This document shows positions 5,377-59,702 of a stretch of DNA of 63,343 bases, piece by piece. The notes under the pieces were generated by a model that saw only the letters and a list, made by a program, of their open reading frames with translations, made no database searches and had not been told where the DNA came from. The translations under genes were made by a program, and so were the position numbers. Positions within the stretch are counted from its first letter, which is position 1. Every line of letters begins with the position of its first letter. This DNA is from Patescibacteria group bacterium (GTDB taxonomy: Bacteria > Patescibacteriota > Patescibacteriia > Patescibacteriales > WJLG01), in the NCBI GenBank assembly GCA_028716485.1, contig JAQUPS010000007.1:1-63343 (forward strand), in the 5' to 3' direction.

Positions 5377-5662
5377 TCGATAAATCAGTTAAACAAAAAA
5401 TCAAGTGCTTACCGCACCATTATTTATTTAAGAGTATAACACAGAAAACCGCTATAAATCAATATGATGCCCGAAATCAAAAAAATATAAACAAATAATC
5501 CGGCCCGCGGGAAAGCAATATTTTGCGTTCCCGGGATTTGAACGGATAAATAATCCGTTCCTACGGGATAGAGCAAAAAGATAACAGCTTGCCCCGCATA
5601 GCTTTAGCGAAGCGGGGCAATATCTTGCGTTGAAACTTCAGGGGTGCGGTAAAGAAAAATAT

Positions 5663-14973: not shown

Positions 14974-15699
14974 TTATCTCTTCTTTTTCTTCGAGCCCTT
15001 CTTTTTGCTCTTCTTGGCAGCCTTCTTTTTTCTCTTGGCCATGGTTTTATTCGCGCTTTTTTTCATCTTAATTGGTGAAGGTGGGCGCGATTTAATTAAT
15101 TTCACTTTTTTATTTATGCCAAAATTGGCTAAAACGGCGTTTTCCAGCCGCAAAAAGTCTTTGACCCGCATTTCCACTGAATGATTGAAGCTGCCTGACG
15201 GAAAAACAGCCTTAGCCAGCGCGGACAGCCTTTTTTCCGCGATTACCGGTAAATTATGGAAACTGCCGAAAGCTGACATCCCCCCTTCGCGCAGTTTGAG
15301 CAATTCTTTCATCACCTTTTCCGAAGGAATTTGCACGATCCTGACTTTATGTCCTGCCGCTTTCTCGATTGCCTGCTGGATTTTCTTAAAATCCATATTC
15401 TGATTGGCCGGGAGACAAACGATGTAATAATAATTATCCGCCTTGATCAAAAGCGTCTTGACTATCTCGTCCATTTTTCTTTTCAAAGTGTTGGCGGCAT
15501 CGATAGCGGTATAAACTGTTTTGTGCTCTAAAATTTTCGGCGAGATCCCTTTCGCTTCCAAATAATTTATCAGCGCGGCGGGGAATTTTTTTCTTTTATC
15601 CGCCGGCTTGTCCTCCATAGCTTTAGCGACGGGGGAAGTTTTGGCGAAGGCGGACTCGTCGGCCGCTTTTTCCGCAGAAGATAATTTTTTCTTACTCAT
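14974..15699 (-). CDS. YbaK/EbsC-type aminoacyl-tRNA deacylase domain protein with Lys-rich tails
   Basis: The core TLLIKADNYYYIVCLPANQNMDFKKI ... GGMSAFGSF ... SGSFNHSVEM resembles the YbaK fold. The C-terminus is KRKKKAAKKSKKKGSKKKKR. Confidence 0.7.
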   Translation of the reverse strand: MSKKKLSSAEKAADESAFAKTSPVAKAMEDKPADKRKKFPAALINYLEAKGISPKILEHKTVYTAIDAANTLKRKMDEIVKTLLIKADNYYYIVCLPANQNMDFKKIQQAIEKAAGHKVRIVQIPSEKVMKELLKLREGGMSAFGSFHNLPVIAEKRLSALAKAVFPSGSFNHSVEMRVKDFLRLENAVLANFGINKKVKLIKSRPPSPIKMKKSANKTMAKRKKKAAKKSKKKGSKKKKR

Positions 15700-19374: not shown

Positions 19375-19444
19375 AAAATGCTAAATGCTAAATGATGAAT
19401 GCTAAATTTTTGTAACAATTTAGCATTTAGCATTTAGCATTTTA
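19375..19444. repeat. Heptamer-arm hairpin (GCTAAAT family)
   Basis: aaaatgctaaatgctaaatgatgaatgctaaat faces tttagcatttagcatttagcatttt. The right arm encodes the RuvX C-terminus. Confidence 0.8.
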
Positions 19445-25019: not shown

Positions 25020-25382
25020 TTAGAATTTCAAGCCGCCGGCTCTGGCTCCTTCAGCCGCCGCCTTAATCCGGCCATGAAACTTGTAAAAGCTCTTATCGAA
25101 AACGGCCTGGCTGATTTTCTTGGCAATGGCTTTTTCAGCCAAAAGCTTTCCTAATTCCGCCGCCAGCTCAGTCTTATTTAATTTCTTAGTCTTGACTTCC
25201 TTGGCCACGGCGCTGACTAAAGTCTTGCCGGCCTCATCGTTGATCAGCTGCAAAGACATGCCGCGATTAGAACGAAAAACCGAAAAACGCGGACACTGAG
25301 CCGTGCCTTTTATTTTGGCGCGGATTCTCGCGTGCCGTCTGATTCTTTTAACTTGTCTAACGATTTGTTTGTCCATATTCAT
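25020..25382 (-). CDS. rplR: 50S ribosomal protein L18
   Basis: Contains RHARIRAKIKGTAQCPRFSVFRSNRGMSLQLIND. Confidence 0.95.
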   Translation of the reverse strand: MNMDKQIVRQVKRIRRHARIRAKIKGTAQCPRFSVFRSNRGMSLQLINDEAGKTLVSAVAKEVKTKKLNKTELAAELGKLLAEKAIAKKISQAVFDKSFYKFHGRIKAAAEGARAGGLKF

Positions 25383-25386
25383 GAAT

Positions 25387-25470
25387 CATGTATCAAGTAA
25401 CATGTAACATTCTGTTCTTCACAAATTTTTTCCTAGAAAATGTTACTTGCTACCTGTTACTTGCTACCTG
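25387..25470. repeat. Heptamer-arm hairpin (GTAACAT family)
   Basis: catgtatcaagtaacatgtaacat faces atgttacttgctacctgttacttgctacctg. Confidence 0.7.
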
Positions 25471-25474
25471 TTTA

Positions 25475-26022: not shown

Positions 26023-26115
26023 AATTCGTATTTCGTATTTCGTATTTCGTATTTCGGAACCCCTATATTTTTTAAAAATATACGAGATACAAAATACGAA
26101 ATACCAAATACGAAT
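26023..26115. repeat. Heptamer-arm hairpin (TCGTATT family), ~33-bp stem
   Basis: The left arm 26023-26056 pairs with the right arm 26081-26115 at about 30 of 33 positions. It fills the rpsH-rplF spacer. Confidence 0.85.
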
Positions 26116-26117
26116 TA

Positions 26118-26534
26118 TTAATATACTTCGCAGACCACTTCTCCGCCGGTTTTTTTCTTTCTGGCCTCCTTGCCGGTCATTAATCCTTGCGAAGTGGAAA
26201 TGATCGCCGTACCTAAACCATTCAAAACCGTGGTTATCTTATCCTTGCTGACATAAACTCGCAAGCCGGGTTTGCTGACTCTTTGGATGGAACTGATCGC
26301 CGGGCGGCCGCTTTTCTTGTATTTCAAGACTATCTTCAATTCCTTGAAAGCCGCGTTTACTTTGCCCTTGGCGGTTTCCGCTCCCAGAATTTCGAATTTT
26401 TGAATCCAATTTTCGCGCGCCAAAATCTCAGCGATGGCAATTTTCATCTTGCTCGCCGGCATTGTCAGCTCGCCGATTCCCGCGGCGGCCGCGTTTCTGA
26501 TTCTTGTTAGCATATCTCCTATTGGATCTGTCAT
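26118..26534 (-). CDS. rpsH: 30S ribosomal protein S8
   Basis: Contains MTDPIGDMLTRIRNA and the C-terminal GGEVVCEVY. Confidence 0.96.
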   Translation of the reverse strand: MTDPIGDMLTRIRNAAAAGIGELTMPASKMKIAIAEILARENWIQKFEILGAETAKGKVNAAFKELKIVLKYKKSGRPAISSIQRVSKPGLRVYVSKDKITTVLNGLGTAIISTSQGLMTGKEARKKKTGGEVVCEVY

Positions 26535-26542
26535 ACTATTTT

Positions 26543-26620
26543 AATGCTAAATTATGAATGCTAAATGCTAAATTATCAATTACTTTCAATTTAGCATTCA
26601 TCATTTAGCATTTAGCATTT
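26543..26620. repeat. Heptamer-arm hairpin (GCTAAAT family)
   Basis: aatgctaaattatgaatgctaaatgctaaatt faces tttagcattcatcatttagcatttagcattt. Confidence 0.8.
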
Positions 26621-27445: not shown

Positions 27446-27502
27446 TTTTAATCCCCTCTCGGGAGGGGTGCCGCGATTGAAATGAGCGGCAGGGTGGGTT
27501 TT
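27446..27502. repeat. 57-nt GC-rich structured repeat, copy 1
   Basis: ttttaatcccctctcgggaggggtgccgcgattgaaatgagcggcagggtgggtttt. It differs from copy 2 at 3 positions. Confidence 0.85.
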
Positions 27503-27885: not shown

Positions 27886-28257
27886 TTATAAGACTTCCGG
27901 CGCCAGCGAGGCGATTTTTACAAAGCCCTTTTTTCTGACTTCTCTGGCAATCGGACCGAAGATTCTGGTGCCTTTCGGCTCGCCCTTGTCCGCATCAACG
28001 ATAACGCAAGCATTCTCGTCAAACCGAAGGCAAGTGCCGTCTTTGCGCTTTATTTCTTTTTTAGTTCTGACAACAACCGCCTTGACGACGTCGCTTTTTT
28101 TAACCGGCGCGTGCGGAATCGCTTCCTTGACCGCGCAAGTTATAATATCGCCGACGTGAGCGTATCGCTTTCCGTAAGTTCCGTTAACTCGAATACACTC
28201 GGCCTCTTTGGCGCCGGTATTATCAGCTACTTTTAATCTTGTTCCAACTTGTATCAT
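27886..28257 (-). CDS. rplN: 50S ribosomal protein L14
   Basis: Starts [18 protein letters not shown]. Confidence 0.97.
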
Positions 28258-28297
28258 ATTCGTATTTCGTATTTGGTATTTCGTATTTCGTATACGG
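28258..28297. repeat. TCGTATT tandem heptamer x5
   Basis: attcgtatttcgtatttggtatttcgtatttcgtatacgg, between rpsQ and rplN. Confidence 0.85.
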
Positions 28298-28325
28298 AAT
28301 ATTTTACGAACTTCCTGATTTTTTA

Positions 28326-28589: not shown

Positions 28590-28646
28590 TTTTAATCCCC
28601 TTTTGGGAGGGGTGCCGCGATTGAAATGAGCGGCGGGGTGGGTTTT
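28590..28646. repeat. 57-nt GC-rich structured repeat, copy 2
   Basis: ttttaatccccttttgggaggggtgccgcgattgaaatgagcggcggggtgggtttt. Confidence 0.85.
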
Positions 28647-28833: not shown

Positions 28834-28848
28834 ATATTCATGAAACAT

Positions 28849-28939
28849 GTATCAAGTATCATATAACATCTCTTTCTCACCGGCTTATTTCCATTGAAAT
28901 GCTACCTGTTACTTGTTACCTGCTATCTGTTTTACTCGT
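28849..28939. repeat. Heptamer-arm hairpin (GTAACAT family)
   Basis: catgaaacatgtatcaagtatcatataacat faces atgctacctgttacttgttacctgctatctg. It overlaps the rplP stop. Confidence 0.65.
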
Positions 28940-30131: not shown

Positions 30132-30324
30132 TTTCGTATTTGGTATTTCGTATCTCGTATTTCGTATATTCTTACGAAATTTAAACTAACAAGTAAATTA
30201 TTAATTATTATTTTTATATCAATTTCAGAAATCTTTTTGTTATTTTATCTTCGGCGTCTTTTTTTGATATTCTTCTCTCTTAACCCGATATACGAAATAC
30301 GATATACCAAATACGAGATACGAA
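30132..30324. repeat. TCGTATT-family inverted arms separated by 117 nt
   Basis: The left arm is 30132-30168 and the right arm 30286-30324 (cgatatacgaaatacgatataccaaatacgagatacgaa). It fills the rplV-rpsC spacer. Confidence 0.8.
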
Positions 30325-30867
30325 TTATCCGTTGCCGCTTTTTCTCTGGAACATTTTATTGACAAATCCTTTCTTGCCCGCGCCTTCCTTGCCCGCCGTA
30401 GCTTTAGCGGAGGCGGGTTTTTCCGCCTTCCCCTTAACATTAGATTTGGCGGCCTTCTCCCCTTCTTTAACCATTTCTTCCAGGGAAATCGGAGCCTCGA
30501 CTTCTTTCTTCTTCGCTGCCGTGATGCCGGAAGCTTTAAGTTCGCCCAAAGTAATATTGATATGGCTCAATCTTTTCCGGATCGGAGTGGCGCTACCGTG
30601 AGCCTTCGGAGTCCAGCGCTTCAGCATTCCGCCTTCGTCAATCCTGATTTCTTTCACCATTAAATTATGTTCATCCAATTCAAAATCATTTTTCGCCGAG
30701 GCAATGGCCGACTTGAGCAATTTGGCGATCGGTTCAACCGCTTTTTTGTTGGCAAATCTCAATTGGTTCAAAGCGACATCAACTTGCGCGCCACGGATAA
30801 GATTGGCCACCAAACGCAGTTTTTTCGAAGACATCCGGATAAATTTTAGTTTGACTTTTATTTCCAT
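30325..30867 (-). CDS. rplV: 50S ribosomal protein L22 with ~70-aa K/A/G-rich C-terminal extension
   Basis: Contains IRMSSKKLRLVANLIRG and RWTPKAHGSATPIRKRLSHINITL. ATG at 30865-30867. Confidence 0.93.
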   Translation of the reverse strand: MEIKVKLKFIRMSSKKLRLVANLIRGAQVDVALNQLRFANKKAVEPIAKLLKSAIASAKNDFELDEHNLMVKEIRIDEGGMLKRWTPKAHGSATPIRKRLSHINITLGELKASGITAAKKKEVEAPISLEEMVKEGEKAAKSNVKGKAEKPASAKATAGKEGAGKKGFVNKMFQRKSGNG

Positions 30868-30975: not shown

Positions 30976-31322
30976 TTTTTCTTAGCCTCGGGAGCTTTGG
31001 CTGCCGGAGCCGCCGCCGGAGCCGGTTTTCCCGCTTCCGCCGCTTCCATTTCTTCGGCCTTCGCCATCTTGCCGCCGTGAGCGATAAATTTCTTGGTTAA
31101 AGAAAATTCTCCCAAACGATGGCCGACCATATTTTCCACTATATAAACCGGAATATGCTGTTTGCCGTTATGCACGCCAATCGTAAACCCGACCATTTCC
31201 GGAGTAATAGTGCAAGCTCGATCCCAAACCTTAATGACGGTTTTGTCTCCGGGCTTGAGATTTTTGAGCTTCTTGATGATTCTGGGATTTACGTATGGGC
31301 CTTTTTTTAAACTTCTGGACAT
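30972..31322 (-). CDS. rpsS: 30S ribosomal protein S19 with Ala/Pro/Lys C-terminal tail
   Basis: Contains [11 protein letters not shown] and [13 protein letters not shown]. The tail is [22 protein letters not shown]. Confidence 0.96.
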
Positions 31323-31326
31323 AAAA

Positions 31327-31422
31327 TTTTCGTATTTCGTATCTCGTATTTCGTATTTCGGACATGATATCTCATTCTAAAAAATATACGAGATACCAAA
31401 TACGAAATACGAAATACGAATT
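31327..31422. repeat. Heptamer-arm hairpin (TCGTATT family), >30-bp stem
   Basis: ttttcgtatttcgtatctcgtatttcgtatttcgg faces tatacgagataccaaatacgaaatacgaaatacgaatt. It fills the rplB-rpsS spacer. Confidence 0.85.
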
Positions 31423-32265
31423 TTATTTTTCAATTCTCTTCTTTCTCCGATGGACAATCAAACTGCTGGAATACTTTTTCTTCCTGGTAGGCACTCCGAG
31501 CGCCGGCTTGCCCCAAGGAGTTTTCGGATGCTTCAAACCGATCGGCTGTTTGCCTTCGCCGCCGCCGTGCGGATGGTCGTTAGGATTCATCGCCGTGCCG
31601 CGGACGGTCGGGCGGATGCCCAATCTTCTTTGGCGTCCGGCAGCGCCGATGATGATATTCATATGATCAGGATTGCTGACTTGGCCGATGGTGCAAAGAC
31701 ATTCTTTGTTTACTAAACGGATTTCCGAGGATGGCATTCTTAATTGGGCGAAATCTCCTTCCACGCCCATCACCGAGACGGAATTTCCGGCGCCGCGGGC
31801 GATTTTTCCGCCCTGGCCGGGAACCATTTCCACATTGGAAACCGCCATACCCGCCGGAATGAATTTGAGCGGCAGCGCGTTGCCGATTTTTATCTCGATC
31901 TCTTTCCGGGAACTTAAAATTTTATCGCCGACTTTCAAACCGACCGGAGCGATGATATATCTTTTCTCGCCATCAGCATAAAAAAGTAAAGCGATTCTCG
32001 CGCCGCGGCCCGGGTCATATTCGATCGCCGCCACTGCCGCCGGCACGTCATATTTATTCCGTAAAAAATCAACGATTCTAATCGCTCTTTTCACGCCGCC
32101 GCCTTTATGCCGAGTAGTAATTTTCCCCTGAAAATTGCGGCCGCCGGTGGATTTTTTCGGCAACAACAAACTCTTCACCTTGGCTTTGCCGGTGATATCG
32201 GCGAAATCGTCAAAAGCGAATTCTCTTCTCGCCGCCGTATTCGGTTTTACTTTAATAATGCCCAT
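31423..32265 (-). CDS. rplB: 50S ribosomal protein L2
   Basis: Contains GRNFQGKITTRHKGGG and RGTAMNPNDHPHGGGEGK. Confidence 0.98.
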   Translation of the reverse strand: MGIIKVKPNTAARREFAFDDFADITGKAKVKSLLLPKKSTGGRNFQGKITTRHKGGGVKRAIRIVDFLRNKYDVPAAVAAIEYDPGRGARIALLFYADGEKRYIIAPVGLKVGDKILSSRKEIEIKIGNALPLKFIPAGMAVSNVEMVPGQGGKIARGAGNSVSVMGVEGDFAQLRMPSSEIRLVNKECLCTIGQVSNPDHMNIIIGAAGRQRRLGIRPTVRGTAMNPNDHPHGGGEGKQPIGLKHPKTPWGKPALGVPTRKKKYSSSLIVHRRKKRIEK

Positions 32266-36375: not shown

Positions 36376-37047
36376 TTAGAATCTAACATCTGCCGCGGAT
36401 TTTTTTACTTCTTCCGGAATTTCCCAATGCTTGCGATTTTTCAATTCATCCTTAATGCTGGTGAAGCCAGTTTCTTCGTGAGCGACTTCGGATTTATCCG
36501 GCTTGCCCTCCGCAGCTTCAGCGAAGGAGGGTTCATGATAATAGTAGACGTTTTGATCTTCATCGGCTTTCGGTTCAACTGGCGCAACGGCGGCTGGCTC
36601 GTCTATCATCTCATCATCTTCTTCGTCAGGAATTATATTTCCTTCCGCCTTCGCTAAAGCTTCGGCGGACACGTCCGCGTCAAAATGCGGCGGGACAAAA
36701 TTAGGAAAAATTCCATCTTCATCCGCCGAAGCTTCGTCAAGCGAAGCAAAGGCAGAATCTTCTTCATCATCATCAAAATCATCATCCGACTCCGCCATTT
36801 CTTCAAAAAATTTCTTCTCCGAATTGGCGTCTTTCCAAGAAACAATGTCGTGATTTATCTTATCAAGCAACTCCTCTTCTGTCAAGTTTTTAATGCCATT
36901 TCTACCCTTATTTTGGCCGTTTAACAGCTTTTCATAATCATCAAGATTCATCACCACCGAACTGCGGTCGTTCAATTCATCAATGACTATTATCTTATCA
37001 CCGGTCATTTTGGCTATATCGATTGCACGTTCTAATTGGCTTCTCAT
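36376..37047 (-). CDS. Hypothetical highly acidic protein
   Basis: 223 aa with a short structured N-terminus (IIVIDELNDRSSVVMNLDDYEKLL) followed by long D/E-rich low-complexity sequence. Lies between fusA and tuf. Confidence 0.65.
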   Translation of the reverse strand: MRSQLERAIDIAKMTGDKIIVIDELNDRSSVVMNLDDYEKLLNGQNKGRNGIKNLTEEELLDKINHDIVSWKDANSEKKFFEEMAESDDDFDDDEEDSAFASLDEASADEDGIFPNFVPPHFDADVSAEALAKAEGNIIPDEEDDEMIDEPAAVAPVEPKADEDQNVYYYHEPSFAEAAEGKPDKSEVAHEETGFTSIKDELKNRKHWEIPEEVKKSAADVRF

Positions 37048-56010: not shown

Positions 56011-56124
56011 TTAATTATTTTTGTCCTCTTTATCTTTTTTTGAATCCTCAATCACTCCGGCAACTATCGCGCCGACGACCAGCAAAATAAAAACAATAAT
56101 GCCAATTCCCAACATACTTTTCAT
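56011..56124 (-). CDS. Possible 37-aa single-TM small protein, start overlapping the ileS stop (ATGA)
   Basis: My translation is MKSMLGIGIIVFILLVVGAIVAGVIEDSKKDKEDKNN. Its ATG at 56122-56124 overlaps the ileS TGA at 56121-56123. It is below the ORF-track size cutoff. Confidence 0.4.
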   Translation of the reverse strand: MKSMLGIGIIVFILLVVGAIVAGVIEDSKKDKEDKNN

Positions 56125-59100
56125 ATTTTTTTAATTTTTATAATCAATTTCTCTCCGTTGGCTTCAACCGCTTTGCCGCCATCGGTGGCGCCGATGATTA
56201 TTTTGTCGGCCAAAACATCTTTTTTCAAATCGGCTTCAAAAGTTTTGACGGCATTTTTTACTGCTTCGCTTTCAGTGGCAATCGTTAGAATAATTTTATC
56301 ATTGATAGTTAAATCGGCGTTCTTGCGTTCGGCATTAATGAATCTAACCAGCTCACGCTTCAAACCCTCGGCGATCAATTCCGGCGTCATCGTTATATCC
56401 AATTCTACGGAGATTTCTCCCCCCCCTTCTTCGGTGATTATCTCTTTGACGTTCAGCTCATCTTTGAGCAAATCAAAATAAATAATTTTTAATTTTGCAT
56501 TTTTAATTTTTAATTGAGCGAGAGGCTGGCGGACTTTTATCTCCGCTTCGTCGCGCTTGGCCAAGCCCATCTCCACGACTTTGCGCGCCAAAGCCATCTC
56601 CTCAATAATTTCTTTTTGCTCGTCATCCTTTTCATAATTAACCCATTCTTCTAGATGCACCGAGGCTTCGGGATTAGCAAAATTATTGCCGGTGACTTTT
56701 TGCCATAATTGTTCGGCGATGAACGGCGTGAACGGCGCCATAACCTTGGCCAAATCGGTCAGAACCAAACGAGTAGTCGCCAGCGCGGATTTTTTGTCTT
56801 CGCCTTCATCTTTAAATCTATCTCTGCTCCTCCTTAAATACCAAGTGGAAAAATCATCGATGAACTGGGCAATCGGACGCGTCGCGCGCGGCAGATCGTA
56901 TTTTTTCATCCCCTCGCTCACTTCAGAAACTAACTGATTTAAGCGGGCAATAATCCATTTATCCAAAATATTCTTCGGTTCATAATCTGCCTGGAAACCC
57001 ACCCCGTCTCGCGAGGCGCGAGCCACCCCTCCCGCGGAGGGGAATTCGTACATCTCGTAGAATTTATAAACATTCCAGAGAATCATATTCACTTTGCGCA
57101 GGCAATCGGCCACGGCTTTTTCGGAAAAATTCAGATTTTCCGCGGTCATCACCGGCGAAGTCAAAAGATAATAGCGCAAAGCGTCGGCGCCGTATTTTTC
57201 CAAAATGATTTCCGGATCAGGATAATTTTTCAGCCGCTTGGACATTTTCTTGCCGTCTTCGGCTAAAACTATTCCATTGACGATGACATTTTTGTAGGCA
57301 AAATTATTGCGGATGCCGGCGGCCAAGGCGTGCAAATAATAAAACCAGGTGCGAGTTTGGTCAATGCCTTCGGCGATGAATTCAGCCGGAAAATTATGTT
57401 CGAATCTTTCCTTATTCTCGAACGGATAATGCATCTGCGCGTACGGCATCGAACCGGATTCGAACCAGCAATCCAAAACATCGCTCACTCGTTTCATTTC
57501 GCCGGGACAGACATCGCATTGCAAAGCGATATTATCGACAGAATCTTTATGCAAATCGATTTCTTTCTTGGTGGAATTATTGACATAGACGATCTTGAAC
57601 TCGCCTTTATGAGTATGGTTCGGCCCATAAAGCGACAGACCGGCTTCATGTTTGGTCCTGCCTCTCAATATGCTGATCAGGTCATCAATAGGATCGGAAT
57701 GCGAAACGATTATAATAGTTTTGCCGCTATTTTTTTCCAAAGTTCCGAGCAGCCATTGATACATCCGCTCGCCGACTTCGGTTTGGGTTTCGCCTGTTCC
57801 GCCGACGCGGATATCCATCATCTCTTCAGGCGCGGCAGCCAGATATTTTTGGCGCGATTCATCATGCTTAGCCAGCTCGTCGCGATTTTTATCATTCCAA
57901 TCTCCCAGCGCGATCTCTCTTAATTCATCAGCTGCAGCGAATTCCAGCCCCAAAATCTTGCCGATTATTTCTGCGCTTTCCCTGGTGCGCAAAACCGGCG
58001 AGGCATAAAAAACGATCTTATCTTTTTGTTCATCGGCAAGTTCACTTTTCAATTTTTCCGCGGTGGCGGTTATCTGCGCCCGTCCTTTTTCGGTTAAATT
58101 ATATTTATCCTGGCCGGAATAAATTATGTTGGCCGCGTTGCTTTCCGCTTCGCCGTGGCGGACTAAAATCAATTTGGTCAGCTGGCCGTTGGCATGGCGA
58201 TAAAATTCTTCCAGCGACCCGATGACTTTTTTGGCGCCGCAGGGGCATTGCCAGATCGGGATGCAGGAAGCCCAGAAACGCTGGCGGGAAATCGACCAGT
58301 CGCGCGCGCCTTCCAGCCATTTGCCGAAACGGCCGGCCTTGATATGCTCCGGCGACCAGTTGATCGCCTCGGCCAATTCCAGCATCCGCGGTTTTATTTT
58401 GGCGATTTTGACGAACCAAGAAGAAGTGGCGTAATTGATGAGCGGCGTGTCGCAGCGCCAGCAGAACGGATAGCTATGCTCGTATTTTTCCTTGGCGAAT
58501 AATAAATCTTTACCGGCCAGATATTTGATGATGGCGACGTCGGTTGATTGCACATCTTCGATCGGCTTCACGTGCAGGCCGGTGAACTCGCCCATTTCCT
58601 TTTTGAAAGTTCCGTCCATGCCGACGTGCTGGACAAAGGGCAAATTATAATCGCGGCCAAGATTCATATCAGCTTCGCCGAAAGCCGGCGCGATATGCAC
58701 GATGCCGGTGCCGTCCTCGGTAGTCACGAATTCGCCATGATAAATCTTCCAGCCATTTTCGCGGTTAGCCAATGTTTCATCCTTCGCATAAAAATCAAAC
58801 AGCGGCTTATATTTTTTGCCGATCAACTCTGCCCCCTTAAATTCTCTAATTATTTCAAATTCCTTATCTCTTAAAACGTCATTAATTCTTTCTTTCGCCA
58901 AAATAATTCTTAATTCTTCATTCCCTGCCTTGCCGGCAGGCAGGTTAATTCTTAATTCGCAATAGTCAATCTCTTTCCCGACCGCCAGCGCGACATTTCC
59001 CGGCAAAGTCCATGGCGTGGTCGTCCAAGCTAAAACATAAACACCGGGCTCGTCGACGAGTTCAAATTTTACGGTCACCGACAAATCTTTAACATCGCGA

Positions 59101-59702
59101 TAGCCTTCCGCCACTTCCGATTGCGACAAAGTCGTTTCACAGCGCGGACAAATATACATAGAGCGGTAATCCTGATAGATCAGATCGTTATCCCAAAGCT
59201 GTTTGAACGCCCACCAAACCGATTCCATATAAGACAAGTCCATAGTGCGATAAGGATTTTCCATATCCGCCCAGCGGCCCAGCCGGCGGATCGTTTTTTT
59301 CCATTCCTCGGTGAATTCAGCCGCCCGTTCGCGGCAAAGCGCGTTGAATTTAGCTACGCCGATTTTTTCCTCGATTTCTTTTTTGCTTTTGGTGCCCAAT
59401 TCTTTCTCGACGATATTCTCGATCGGCAAGCCGTGGCAATCCCAGCCCCAGCGGCGCGGAATCTGGTAGCCGTTCATCGTCCAAAAACGCGGCACCGCGT
59501 CTTTCATCAAGCTGGCGACCAGATGGCCGTAATGCGGCGTGCCGGTAGCGAACGGCGGACCATCGTAAAAAACATACTCGCCGCGCGGAGCTTCTTTGGC
59601 AATGGATTTTTCGAAAATCTTATTCTTTTCCCAAAACGCCAAAACTTCCTCCTCCATCCCGACAAAGATATTTTTCTTCTCCTGATTATTTTTTTGAACC
59701 AT
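56121..59702 (-). CDS. ileS: Isoleucyl-tRNA synthetase with an inserted histidine-phosphatase domain
   Basis: 1193 aa. HIGH is PHYGH (aa 56-60) and KMSKS is KMSKR (aa 819-823). Also WSISRQRFW and DCWFESGSMPYAQ. Aa ~510-712 carry the RHG histidine-phosphatase motifs. Confidence 0.95.
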   Translation of the reverse strand: MVQKNNQEKKNIFVGMEEEVLAFWEKNKIFEKSIAKEAPRGEYVFYDGPPFATGTPHYGHLVASLMKDAVPRFWTMNGYQIPRRWGWDCHGLPIENIVEKELGTKSKKEIEEKIGVAKFNALCRERAAEFTEEWKKTIRRLGRWADMENPYRTMDLSYMESVWWAFKQLWDNDLIYQDYRSMYICPRCETTLSQSEVAEGYRDVKDLSVTVKFELVDEPGVYVLAWTTTPWTLPGNVALAVGKEIDYCELRINLPAGKAGNEELRIILAKERINDVLRDKEFEIIREFKGAELIGKKYKPLFDFYAKDETLANRENGWKIYHGEFVTTEDGTGIVHIAPAFGEADMNLGRDYNLPFVQHVGMDGTFKKEMGEFTGLHVKPIEDVQSTDVAIIKYLAGKDLLFAKEKYEHSYPFCWRCDTPLINYATSSWFVKIAKIKPRMLELAEAINWSPEHIKAGRFGKWLEGARDWSISRQRFWASCIPIWQCPCGAKKVIGSLEEFYRHANGQLTKLILVRHGEAESNAANIIYSGQDKYNLTEKGRAQITATAEKLKSELADEQKDKIVFYASPVLRTRESAEIIGKILGLEFAAADELREIALGDWNDKNRDELAKHDESRQKYLAAAPEEMMDIRVGGTGETQTEVGERMYQWLLGTLEKNSGKTIIIVSHSDPIDDLISILRGRTKHEAGLSLYGPNHTHKGEFKIVYVNNSTKKEIDLHKDSVDNIALQCDVCPGEMKRVSDVLDCWFESGSMPYAQMHYPFENKERFEHNFPAEFIAEGIDQTRTWFYYLHALAAGIRNNFAYKNVIVNGIVLAEDGKKMSKRLKNYPDPEIILEKYGADALRYYLLTSPVMTAENLNFSEKAVADCLRKVNMILWNVYKFYEMYEFPSAGGVARASRDGVGFQADYEPKNILDKWIIARLNQLVSEVSEGMKKYDLPRATRPIAQFIDDFSTWYLRRSRDRFKDEGEDKKSALATTRLVLTDLAKVMAPFTPFIAEQLWQKVTGNNFANPEASVHLEEWVNYEKDDEQKEIIEEMALARKVVEMGLAKRDEAEIKVRQPLAQLKIKNAKLKIIYFDLLKDELNVKEIITEEGGGEISVELDITMTPELIAEGLKRELVRFINAERKNADLTINDKIILTIATESEAVKNAVKTFEADLKKDVLADKIIIGATDGGKAVEANGEKLIIKIKKI
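56995..57046. repeat. Relative of the 57-nt element inside the ileS CDS (opposite orientation)
   Basis: aaacccacccc-gtCTCGCGaggCGCGAGc-cacccctcccgcggaggggaatt shares both ends with the reverse complement of 27446-27502 but has a different central hairpin. It encodes EFPSAGGVARASRDGVGFQ. Confidence 0.65.
58905..58958. repeat. GC hairpin flanked by a 12-bp direct repeat inside the ileS CDS
   Basis: AATTCTTAATTC (58905-58916) recurs at 58947-58958 around CCTGCC-ttgcc-GGCAGG. It encodes ELRI-NLPAGKAGNE-ELRI. Confidence 0.75.

What the first reader, a model, noticed from the sequence alone, without database searches (positions are those of the whole stretch)
56995..57046. Relative of the 57-nt element inserted in frame in ileS, with a swapped central hairpin
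Plus strand 56995-57046 reads aaacccacccc...cacccctcccgcggaggggaatt. This matches both ends of the reverse complement of 27446-27502. The central GCCGC/GCGGC hairpin is replaced by CTCGCG-agg-CGCGAG. The segment lies in the ileS CDS and is read through as EFPSAGGVARASRDGVGFQ (aa 886-904), in the region between the KMSKS loop and the anticodon-binding domain. In-frame palindromic-element insertions are known from Rickettsia (RPEs). Seeing the same phenomenon here would be notable.
Basis: partly seen in the sequence, partly recalled or inferred. Interest (0 to 1): 0.62.

Follow-up and report, generated by a model that had tools for sequence, protein, structure and literature searches.

The report
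Triplex-type repeat inserted in-frame in ileS
A 51-base copy of a small GC-rich repeat found in many bacterial phyla sits in frame inside the essential isoleucyl-tRNA synthetase gene of a Patescibacteria (CPR) bacterium. It is read as a floppy 17-residue loop, and the repeat family looks like triple-helix-forming DNA that normally flanks a tiny nuclease gene.

Summary
Window 56995-57045 (minus strand) is a 51-nt repeat copy, 17 codons long and open in all six frames, inside ileS. The window holds two intergenic copies (27450-27501, 28594-28645).

A profile built only from non-CPR copies scores the ileS copy best (E=1.2e-8).

Close IleRS relatives carry the same family at the same loop in three reading frames, and at two further sites that are empty here. 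More distant relatives have a short AT-rich loop. AlphaFold places the insert in the only disordered internal loop, between the catalytic core and the anticodon-binding domain.

The family is very widespread (Verrucomicrobiota, Binatia, Cyanobacteria, Bacteroidota and others). Its anatomy is a pyrimidine arm, a purine arm, a turn or self-closing hairpin, and a G/T strand mirroring the purine arm. C-G*G and T-A*T co-vary. This matches class II intrastrand-triplex repeats (E. coli BoxC/TMECO type), but the sequence family was not found in the searchable literature.

Unexpectedly, these repeats form inverted ends around ~125-aa DUF559 (Vsr-like) nuclease genes: 53 of 80 loci chosen by protein alone have both ends. 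E. coli ycjD also abuts BoxC.

Verdict: a real, RPE-like in-frame passenger and a new variant of known kinds. Triplex folding and the mobilising enzyme are inferred.

The parts
56995..57045 (-). Whole in-frame repeat copy: 51 nt, 17 codons. The G-rich strand is the sense strand of ileS: ATT CCCCTCC GCG GGAGGGG TG GCTCGCGCCTCGCGAGAC GGGGTGG GTTT.
   Evidence: nhmmer with a profile from 229 non-CPR copies gives E=1.2e-8 and 30.6 bits, the best hit in the window. All six frames are free of stops, versus 3% of random 51-mers from the window. Coordinates were checked.
57036..57042 (-). Pyrimidine arm CCCCTCC (5' arm of hairpin 1).
   Evidence: Pairs with 57026-57032 in the DNA fold. CCCCTC was a fixed part of every collection search pattern, so its constancy across those hits is not independent evidence.
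57033..57035 (-). Loop 1 (GCG).
57026..57032 (-). Purine arm GGAGGGG (3' arm of hairpin 1).
57006..57025 (-). Linker (loop 2): TG plus a self-closing hairpin, G CTCGCG CCT CGCGAG AC. This is the 'swapped' central hairpin.
   Evidence: 6-bp stem in the DNA fold. Across the family, linkers are either 2-4 nt or at least 10 nt. 81% of the long linkers close with 4 or more bp, versus 21% of shuffled linkers.
56999..57005 (-). G/T strand GGGGTGG, the mirror image of the purine arm with T opposite A. It is the predicted reverse-Hoogsteen third strand, giving seven triads (six C-G*G and one T-A*T).
   Evidence: Mirror rule and co-variation across the family. Coordinates. Folding itself is inferred, not shown.
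56991..57047 (-). Codons 886-904 of IleRS (EFPSAGGVARASRDGVGFQ), the peptide read from the element and its junctions.
   Evidence: pLDDT is below 50 for residues 889-905, the only such internal segment.
56121..59702 (-). ileS, a type-2 (eukaryote-like) IleRS of 1193 aa, the host gene of the insertion.
27450..27501 (+). Intergenic copy between rplX and rplE. The G-rich strand is on +, so the C-rich strand is in the operon mRNA. It ends 10 nt before the rplE ATG.
   Evidence: E=1e-7. The TGA in its hairpin-2 loop closes two of the three G-strand frames.
28594..28645 (+). Intergenic copy between rpmC and rpsQ, with the same hairpin 2 as the copy at 27450-27501.
   Evidence: E=9.6e-8. The scanner finds no element in locus L205 apart from the one aligned to the rplX-rplE site; the L205 sequence at the rpmC-rpsQ site itself was not retrieved.

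Best explanation
Window 56995-57045 is a solitary copy of a dispersed, GC-rich DNA repeat that entered ileS and survives because three conditions hold. It is a multiple of three in length (51 nt). It contains no stop codon in any frame. It landed in a permissive, disordered loop between the catalytic core and the anticodon-binding domain. The ribosome reads it as 17 extra Gly/Ala/Arg-rich residues. I take these to be a passenger with no role in the enzyme.

On its G-rich strand the repeat has the architecture of a class II intrastrand purine-motif DNA triplex. A pyrimidine arm (CCCCTCC) pairs with a purine arm (GGAGGGG). A linker, which is either a 2-4-nt turn or a self-closing hairpin, turns the chain back. 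A G/T strand (GGGGTGG) can then lie antiparallel to the purine arm as G*G and T*A triads. This makes the 'swapped central hairpin' simply a different filling of loop 2.

The family's complete units appear to be segments of about 430-490 bp in which two such repeats, in inverted orientation, bracket a small DUF559 (Vsr-like PD-(D/E)xK) nuclease gene. Solitary copies such as the one in ileS would then be non-autonomous derivatives spread in trans, as REPs relate to RAYT genes.

Shown here: family membership, the insertion state, in-frame tolerance, the disordered-loop location, presence/absence differences among relatives, the mirror co-variation, and the DUF559 linkage.

Inferred: that the triplex actually folds, that the DUF559 nuclease is the mobilising enzyme, and that the peptide is functionless.
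For: Membership and non-chance.

Insertion state:
- The loop is 25 aa here versus about 12-14 aa in most orthologues.
- The site is empty and AT-rich in L308.

The constraint is on DNA, not peptide:
- The same element sits at the same site in three frames in L199, L201, L202 and L203.
- The same family is in frame at two other ileS sites, which are filled in L199, L201, L203, L204 or in L202, L204 and empty in the window. It is also in frame in a FemAB gene.
- P0019 and P0024 are 73% identical but carry different inserts at site 1. P0024 is only 58% identical to the window yet carries the window's variant, including the ARASRD hairpin.

Lineage restriction within CPR: 14 copies in 130 kb of close relatives versus 0 in 824 kb of other CPR ileS loci.

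Tolerance: six open frames and 3n length. pLDDT is below 50 only at residues 889-905. The insert lies at a domain boundary.

Triplex anatomy:
- In loci newly found by a pattern that left both positions free, the base before GAGGGG and the base after GGGGTG are A/T in 37 of 37 cases and G/G in 45 of 46.
- The pyrimidine arm follows (T or C), giving T-A*T 36, C-G*G 31 and T.G*G 13 of 83.
- L201 extends the rule by two more T-A*T triads.
- Linker lengths are bimodal and long linkers self-close.
- Class II triplex repeats are an established kind. CD and NMR proved folding for E. coli TMECO/BoxC (PMC4666352).

DUF559 linkage:
- 9 element-selected loci hold a DUF559 gene, in every measured case with an element within about 300 nt.
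- In 80 loci chosen by protein homology alone, 63 have an element within 330 nt upstream, 65 at the 3' end and 53 have both. Control positions shifted by 1.8 kb score 3 and 5 of 132.
- Units of 428-490 bp with inverted ends occur, including in the Patescibacteria locus L344; the Paceibacterota locus L358 carries a longer, 605-bp arrangement with extra copies.
- E. coli ycjD ends inside a TM-like hairpin, with a full BoxC about 170 nt downstream.
- The nearest solved relatives are an 'endonuclease-like protein' (3HRL) and a mobile-intron homing nuclease (3R3P).
Against: - No triplex folding was measured for this sequence. Loop 2 in the window copies is 20-23 nt, outside the 1-6 nt used to define such motifs in PMC4666352.
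- The co-variation rests mainly on two widespread subfamilies, so there are few independent events.
- No DUF559 gene was found in the window or in 130 kb from close relatives. Its presence in this organism is unknown.
- No target-site duplication or exact empty/filled pair at high identity was found, so the insertion mechanism is undefined.
- PMC4666352 found no mobility genes near E. coli TMECO and proposed instability rather than transposition.
- The same orientation at ileS site 1 in five lineages could also reflect one old insertion followed by turnover.
- A function for the peptide or for the mRNA structure is not excluded.
Confidence: 0.7

Rival explanations
1. The repeats have no dedicated enzyme. 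Non-B DNA (hairpin or triplex) stalls replication, and copies arise, are lost or overwrite each other by template switching, slippage or short-patch gene conversion. The DUF559 gene is a frequent neighbour, for example a hot spot or a hitch-hiker.
For: PMC4666352 links TMECO sites to local rearrangement and found no mobility genes. Hairpin 2 is swapped or extended within otherwise conserved arms: window versus L199, and P0019 versus P0024 at site 2. No target-site duplication was seen. No DUF559 gene was found in the window.
Against: Random hot-spot behaviour does not explain the fixed architecture. The repeats sit at both ends of a ~125-aa ORF, in inverted orientation, in 53 of 80 loci from several phyla, and are almost absent 1.8 kb away. 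The same ~40-nt sequence recurs across phyla.
Confidence: 0.2
2. It is an ordinary REP/REPIN or MITE moved by a conventional transposase (a Y1 HUH RAYT or IS200/IS605 type, or a DDE enzyme) encoded elsewhere in the genome.
For: The element is short, GC-rich and palindromic, and is multi-copy. Inverted pairs 10-30 nt apart occur in Binatia, as in REPINs.
Against: Clustering all ORFs in 118 element loci gave no recurrent transposase. Pfam on the two densest loci found none. There is no GTAG-type head, no inverted repeat between the element's own two ends, and no target-site duplication. REP sequences are species-specific, whereas this sequence is conserved across phyla.
Confidence: 0.07
3. The insert is kept for a function in gene expression or in the enzyme, for example an mRNA structure that paces translation between two domains, or a loop that contacts tRNA or a partner.
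For: The site between the catalytic core and the anticodon-binding domain is occupied by some insert in many lineages. In coding regions of relatives, the G-rich strand is the sense strand in 11 of 15 cases.
Against: Three different reading frames give unrelated peptides at the same site. The site is empty in L308 and in most Patescibacteria. The loop is predicted to be disordered. The RNA fold of the sense strand is no better than shuffles, z = -0.22. Purine-motif triplexes are reported not to form in RNA (PMC4666352). Identical elements lie in intergenic DNA and in the opposite orientation.
Confidence: 0.06
4. The resemblance is chance GC-rich similarity or an assembly artefact.
For: The element is short, and assemblers break at it.
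Against: E=1.2e-8 against an independent profile. 0.02 copies are expected in shuffles. Both junctions were recovered in separate runs. Related inserts occur in IleRS from other metagenomes.
Confidence: 0.01

Closest known systems
BoxC / PIT elements / TMECO: class II intrastrand-triplex repeats of E. coli and other bacteria (Holder et al. 2015, PMC4666352; Hoyne et al. 2000 as cited there)
   Same: The order of parts is the same: a 5' pyrimidine arm, a purine arm, then a 3' G-rich strand mirroring the purine arm, with C-G*G and T-A*T/A triads. Both are GC-rich, about 35-50 nt, multi-copy, highly conserved in sequence, and have no known function. Both lie next to a DUF559 gene (ycjD in E. coli).
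   Different: The sequence differs: CCCCTCC/GGAGGGG/GGGGTGG versus CCCTCNCCC/GGGNGAGGG/GGGNGAGGG. The stem is 7 rather than 9 triads. Loop 2 often holds a whole hairpin. The host range spans many phyla. TMECO is always intergenic in E. coli, whereas here copies are read in frame inside essential genes. Folding is proven for TMECO and not tested here. The motif strings are absent from that paper and from its two held supplementary files.
Rickettsia palindromic elements (RPEs; Ogata et al. 2000, from my own knowledge; reviewed in PMC10969869)
   Same: A repeated palindromic element inserted in frame in unrelated housekeeping genes. It is translated and tolerated at sites compatible with the protein fold. 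Copies are also found in intergenic DNA.
   Different: RPEs are about 100-150 bp, restricted to Rickettsia, and encode a conserved peptide in one frame. This element is 28-60 bp, spans many phyla, is read in any frame, and has the mirror G/T strand. There is no sequence similarity.
REP/REPIN elements with their RAYT (Y1 HUH) genes
   Same: Short GC-rich hairpin repeats, often as inverted doublets. A small nuclease-type gene is bracketed by the repeats in inverted orientation, and many solitary copies lie elsewhere.
   Different: The bracketed gene is a DUF559 PD-(D/E)xK nuclease, not a Y1 transposase. There is no GTAG head. The repeat sequence is conserved across phyla rather than species-specific. 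Copies occur inside genes.
MITEs derived from insertion sequences
   Same: Small non-autonomous copies that resemble the ends of a longer coding unit, and that can create in-frame fusions.
   Different: A solitary copy equals one end of the unit, not two ends joined. No target-site duplication was seen. The parent unit is only about 450 bp and encodes no known transposase family.

Membership tests
Class II intrastrand-triplex (PIT/BoxC/TMECO-type) repeats | A 5' pyrimidine arm followed by a complementary purine arm (hairpin) | tested here: met
   CCCCTCC/GGAGGGG form a 7-bp stem in the DNA fold.
Class II intrastrand-triplex (PIT/BoxC/TMECO-type) repeats | A 3' strand that mirrors the purine arm with G opposite G and T or A opposite A | tested here: met
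   GGGGTGG versus GGAGGGG in all three window copies. Across the family, position-7 co-variation is A/T 37 of 37 and G/G 45 of 46.
Class II intrastrand-triplex (PIT/BoxC/TMECO-type) repeats | Short loops (1-6 nt in the ITxF definition) | tested here: not met
   Loop 1 is 3-4 nt. Loop 2 is 20-23 nt in the window copies, although it closes on itself as a hairpin. Family members with a loop 2 of 2-4 nt exist.
Class II intrastrand-triplex (PIT/BoxC/TMECO-type) repeats | TMECO consensus CCCTCNCCC N3-6 GGGNGAGGG N3 GGGNGAGGG | tested here: not met
   The arm sequence and length differ. This is the same kind of element but not the same family.
Class II intrastrand-triplex (PIT/BoxC/TMECO-type) repeats | Triplex folding shown by CD/NMR or footprinting | not testable with these tools
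   Only sequence co-variation is available.
Class II intrastrand-triplex (PIT/BoxC/TMECO-type) repeats | Multi-copy and intergenic | tested here: inconclusive
   Multi-copy is met: 3 copies in the window, 14 in 130 kb of relatives, and a 10-fold depth rise. Intergenic is not met for the ileS copy. In non-CPR genomes, 32% of copies lie in long open frames versus 76% of random sites.
Rickettsia palindromic elements (RPE) | In-frame insertion in protein genes at tolerated sites | tested here: met
Rickettsia palindromic elements (RPE) | About 100-150 bp, a Rickettsia host, and membership of an RPE sequence family with a conserved peptide | tested here: not met
   The element is 51 nt, the host is Patescibacteria, and the peptides differ by frame.
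REP/REPIN-RAYT | A Y1 (HUH) RAYT gene flanked by the repeats | tested here: not met
   No recurrent transposase was found near the elements. The flanked gene is DUF559.
REP/REPIN-RAYT | Inverted doublets of short GC-rich palindromes in extragenic DNA | tested here: inconclusive
   Doublets are seen in Binatia and other loci. The window copies are single, and one is intragenic.
MITE of an IS | Terminal inverted repeats at both ends of the small element, plus a target-site duplication | tested here: not met
   The two ends of a solitary copy are not inverted repeats of each other. No duplication is seen at filled sites.

The most novel reading that the evidence does not exclude
The GC-rich triplex-type repeats of bacteria, including E. 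coli BoxC/TMECO whose origin has been open since the 1990s, may be the inverted ends of a previously unrecognised class of very small units of about 450 bp. These units encode only a DUF559 (Vsr-like PD-(D/E)xK) nuclease. The nuclease would recognise the folded intrastrand triplex on single-stranded DNA and seed solitary repeat copies across the genome. In small-genome Patescibacteria, copies would even land in frame in essential genes such as ileS, making them a steady source of lineage-specific protein insertions.
Probability: 0.4. Interest if true: 0.9.

Novelty: new variant of a known kind. Interest (0 to 1): 0.72.

Why it matters
1. It shows that essential enzymes of reduced-genome CPR bacteria are repeatedly invaded, at several loops, by selfish repeats that are simply translated. 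This gives a concrete mechanism for the many odd lineage-specific insertions in CPR proteins. It is also a warning for annotation and assembly, because contigs break at these sites and peptides such as SPLERGG or PSAGGV are repeat read-through.

2. It extends intrastrand-triplex repeats from an enterobacterial and cyanobacterial curiosity to a family conserved across many phyla. The natural C-G*G to T-A*T co-variation is the kind of evidence usually sought for nucleic-acid structure in vivo.

3. The tight bracketing of DUF559 genes by these repeats, echoed at E. coli ycjD and BoxC, gives a testable candidate for the enzyme behind a repeat class whose origin and spread have been unexplained. 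It also suggests a first function for a widespread domain of unknown function.

Tried and rejected
- Rfam: at gathering threshold on the window, and at E-value threshold on five element loci, no family matched.
- G-quadruplex reading: rejected, because the T-A*T subfamily (GAGAGGGG...GGGGTGTG) has only two G4 runs.
- Shine-Dalgarno sequestering by hairpin 1 in the ribosomal-protein operon: dropped, because neighbouring genes and relatives show no SD-like sequence at the same distance.
- RNA-level structure of the ileS copy: no better than shuffles.
- Search for other pyrimidine-arm hairpin families with mirror tails in the held loci: too few non-CCCCTC arms to test.
- ORF clustering for a linked transposase: nothing. 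A small recurrent ORF cluster turned out to be PIN-domain toxins, which are not specific to the element.
- Exact search for the window's hairpin-2 variant: 0 hits in GTDB genomes and only two related ribosomal-protein operons in metagenomes.
- DNA for P0024 and P0019 could not be fetched because the sample file was too large.
- GC-island scan of the window: uninformative at 44.5% GC.
- Target-site duplications: none evident at any filled site.
- The first DUF559 alignment (A3) was too divergent for locus finding; a narrower one (A4) worked.
- Literature strings GGGGTGGGTT, GAGGGGTG and similar gave only unrelated papers. DUF559 papers do not mention repeats.
Full report
**Observation**

It lies in a 1193-aa IleRS encoded on the minus strand at 56121-59702. 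KMSK is at residue 819, and the peptide EFPSAGGVARASRDGVGFQ is residues 886-904.

Read on the sense (minus) strand, the element is ATT CCCCTCC GCG GGAGGGG TG GCTCGCGCCTCGCGAGAC GGGGTGG GTTT. Two further copies lie in the ribosomal-protein operon with the G-rich strand on +. One is at 27450-27501, between rplX and rplE. The other is at 28594-28645, between rpmC and rpsQ. Both carry a different middle hairpin, CCGC-GATTGAAATGA-GCGG.

A relaxed pattern finds only these three copies, against 0.02 expected in shuffles. A profile HMM built from 229 copies in non-CPR genomes hits the ileS copy best (E=1.2e-8), then the other two (about 1e-7), and nothing else.

Contigs assembled independently from two landfill-metagenome runs reproduce both junctions without mismatch. 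They break inside the element, and depth rises about 10-fold there.

**It is an insertion of DNA, not a conserved peptide**

The nearest IleRS homologues are from Patescibacteria and are at most 78% identical. The loop between FYEMY and NILDKWI is about 12-14 residues in most of them and 25 here.

DNA was recovered for seven relatives:
- L199, L201, L202 and L203 carry the same nucleotide element at the same site and in the same orientation. They use three different reading frames and have different or absent middle hairpins. The resulting peptides (PSVGGV..., PLLSKEGFGGG, SPLERGG...) are unrelated.
- L308 has an AT-rich loop with no element.
- L204 has a different insert.

P0019 and P0024 are 73% identical to each other but differ at this site. 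P0024 is only 58% identical to the window protein, yet has the window's variant, including the ARASRD hairpin.

The same family is also in frame at two other ileS sites, both empty in the window:
- After HLEEWPNN, filled in L199, L201, L203 and L204.
- After RDRFK, filled in L202 and L204.

It is in frame in a FemAB gene as well, and in the opposite orientation in two long ORFs of L053.

Close relatives hold 14 copies in 130 kb. Another 824 kb of CPR ileS loci hold none. Ribosomal-protein operons about 78% identical to the window differ in where they carry the element: L205 carries one at the rplX-rplE site, and L206 carries one 5' of rpsC, where the window has none. These patterns indicate repeated gain, loss or replacement.

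**Why ileS tolerates it**

The copy is 51 nt and open in all six frames. Only 3% of random 51-mers from the window are. The intergenic copies have TGA in two G-strand frames.

An AlphaFold model has mean pLDDT 86. Its only internal segment below 50 is residues 889-905, between helices 861-885 and 912-933. Pfam places the end of the synthetase core near residue 875 and the start of Anticodon_1 at 914. Solved type-2 IleRS align across this variable linker.

**What the element is**

Copies were found in Verrucomicrobiota, Kiritimatiellia, Binatia (9 copies in 8 kb of L116), Cyanobacteria, Bacteroidota, Ignavibacteria, Nitrospira, Acidobacteria and others. A freer pattern added isolates of Chryseobacterium, Flavobacterium and Mucilaginibacter, a metagenome-assembled Akkermansia genome, and Pelosinus, Planctomycetota, Cloacimonadota and Paceibacteria. 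Nineteen IMG/VR contigs also carry it. Rfam has nothing.

The consensus is (A)T CCCCTC(C/T) loop (G/A)GAGGGG TG [linker] GGGGTG(G/T)GTT.

The 3' strand is the mirror image of the purine arm, with T opposite A. The base just before GAGGGG and the base just after GGGGTG co-vary. In loci newly found by the freer pattern, they are A/T in 37 of 37 cases and G/G in 45 of 46. The pyrimidine arm follows, giving T-A*T 36, C-G*G 31 and T.G*G 13 of 83. L201 extends the rule with two more T-A*T triads.

The linker is either 2-4 nt or at least 10 nt. 81% of long linkers close on themselves with 4 or more bp, versus 21% of shuffled linkers.

These are the triads and strand order of a class II intrastrand purine-motif triplex. 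A G-quadruplex is unlikely, because the T-A*T subfamily has only two G4 runs.

This kind of repeat is known. E. coli BoxC/PIT/TMECO has the same layout, folds into a triplex by CD and NMR, is always intergenic there, and has no known mobility gene (PMC4666352). The sequence family found here does not appear in that paper, in its two held supplementary files, or in any paper reached by string search. Folding of this family is inferred.

That paper also states that purine-motif triplexes do not form in RNA. In agreement, the RNA fold of the ileS sense strand is unexceptional.

**A candidate partner**

No transposase recurs near the elements. A DUF559 gene in L238 was flanked by copies. tblastn then found DUF559 genes in 9 element-selected loci, in every measured case with an element within about 300 nt, and usually with the stop codon inside a copy.

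The reverse test used 80 loci selected only by DUF559 protein homology. Most are from Bacteroidota; Chlorobiota, Ignavibacteria, Cyanobacteria and two Patescibacteria are also represented. Results:
- 63 have an element within 330 nt upstream.
- 65 have one at the 3' end.
- 53 have both.
- Positions shifted by 1.8 kb score 3 and 5 of 132.

Orientations are inverted, with the G-rich strand on sense upstream and the C-rich strand on sense downstream.

Typical units are 428-490 bp: CCCCTCTTGAGAGGGG-TTA-GGGGTGTGT, a ~125-aa ORF, then the reverse complement.

In E. coli K-12, the DUF559 gene ycjD ends inside a TM-like hairpin. It is followed by a duplicated piece of its own 3' end and by a full BoxC about 170 nt downstream. 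The solved relatives are an 'endonuclease-like protein' (3HRL) and a mobile-intron homing nuclease (3R3P). Papers mentioning DUF559 do not report this link.

The parallel with REPs bracketing RAYT genes is close. That the nuclease mobilises the repeats is inference. No DUF559 gene lies in the window or in the 130 kb from close relatives.

**Verdict**

The segment is a relative of the intergenic element, inserted in frame, with loop 2 filled by a different hairpin. It behaves like a Rickettsia palindromic element without being one.

It is best filed as a new sequence family and new behaviour of the known class of intrastrand-triplex repeats. Open points are whether the triplex really folds, what the insertion mechanism is (no target duplication was seen), and whether this organism has the nuclease.

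Noticed in passing
window 57651-58172 (minus), IleRS aa 511-684: A complete histidine-phosphatase domain (Pfam His_Phos_1, E=9e-32, with the RHGE motif) is inserted inside the IleRS catalytic domain. It is shared by a clade of Patescibacteria IleRS (P0001-P0019 and others) and is confidently folded in the model.
   Followed up: partly
window 5601-5612, 15620-15649, 30401-30412, 36515-36526, 36649-36660: A second GC-rich hairpin repeat family (core ...AGCTTTAGCGAAGG...) is also read in frame. Examples are the C-terminal tail of L22 (KPASAKATAGKEG) and peptides SFAEAAEGKP and SAEALAKAEG in other ORFs. The same family gives SYAKASAPAKATADKP-type inserts in relatives' IleRS (L202, L204).
   Followed up: partly
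window 26024-26122, 28253-28305, 30133-30183, 31318-31431, and also 25375-25473, 28834-28932, 19377-19408, 26543-26588: Intergenic spacers of the ribosomal-protein operon hold tandem 7-mers (TTCGTAT, AATGCTA, GTTACCT and others) arranged as long inverted repeats. Relatives have different 7-mers at the same spacers (for example TAATTAGG in L205).
   Followed up: no
L309 (E. coli K-12 NC_000913.3 1351039-1351760): The DUF559 gene ycjD ends (…SPSP*) inside a BoxC-like hairpin. A duplicated fragment of its 3' end and a full TMECO/BoxC copy follow within about 170 nt.
   Followed up: partly
L310-L389, e.g. L344:2946-3415, L386:2907-3396, L374:2970-3397: Units of 428-490 bp consist of a ~125-aa DUF559 nuclease ORF bracketed by inverted copies of the triplex-type repeat. 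They occur in Bacteroidota, Chlorobiota, Ignavibacteria, Cyanobacteria and Patescibacteria; the Paceibacterota locus L358 (2934-3538) holds a longer, 605-bp arrangement with extra copies.
   Followed up: yes
L288-L306 (IMG/VR contigs): Nineteen viral contigs carry one to three copies of the repeat each, all of the C-G*G subfamily. No DUF559 gene was detected in the fetched stretches.
   Followed up: no
P0025 and P0024 (IleRS homologues): P0025 has an insert of about 70 aa at the same loop, with repeated GDCGG motifs. P0024's site-2 element has its loop 2 enlarged by ADVSAVALAKA, which looks like a nested insertion of the second repeat family.
   Followed up: no
window 56988-57035 in runs X1-X3: Logan contigs end inside the element, and word depth there is 10-30 times that of flanking ileS. 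Other contigs share the same hairpin-2 variant with unrelated flanks, so this variant has further copies in the community.
   Followed up: partly
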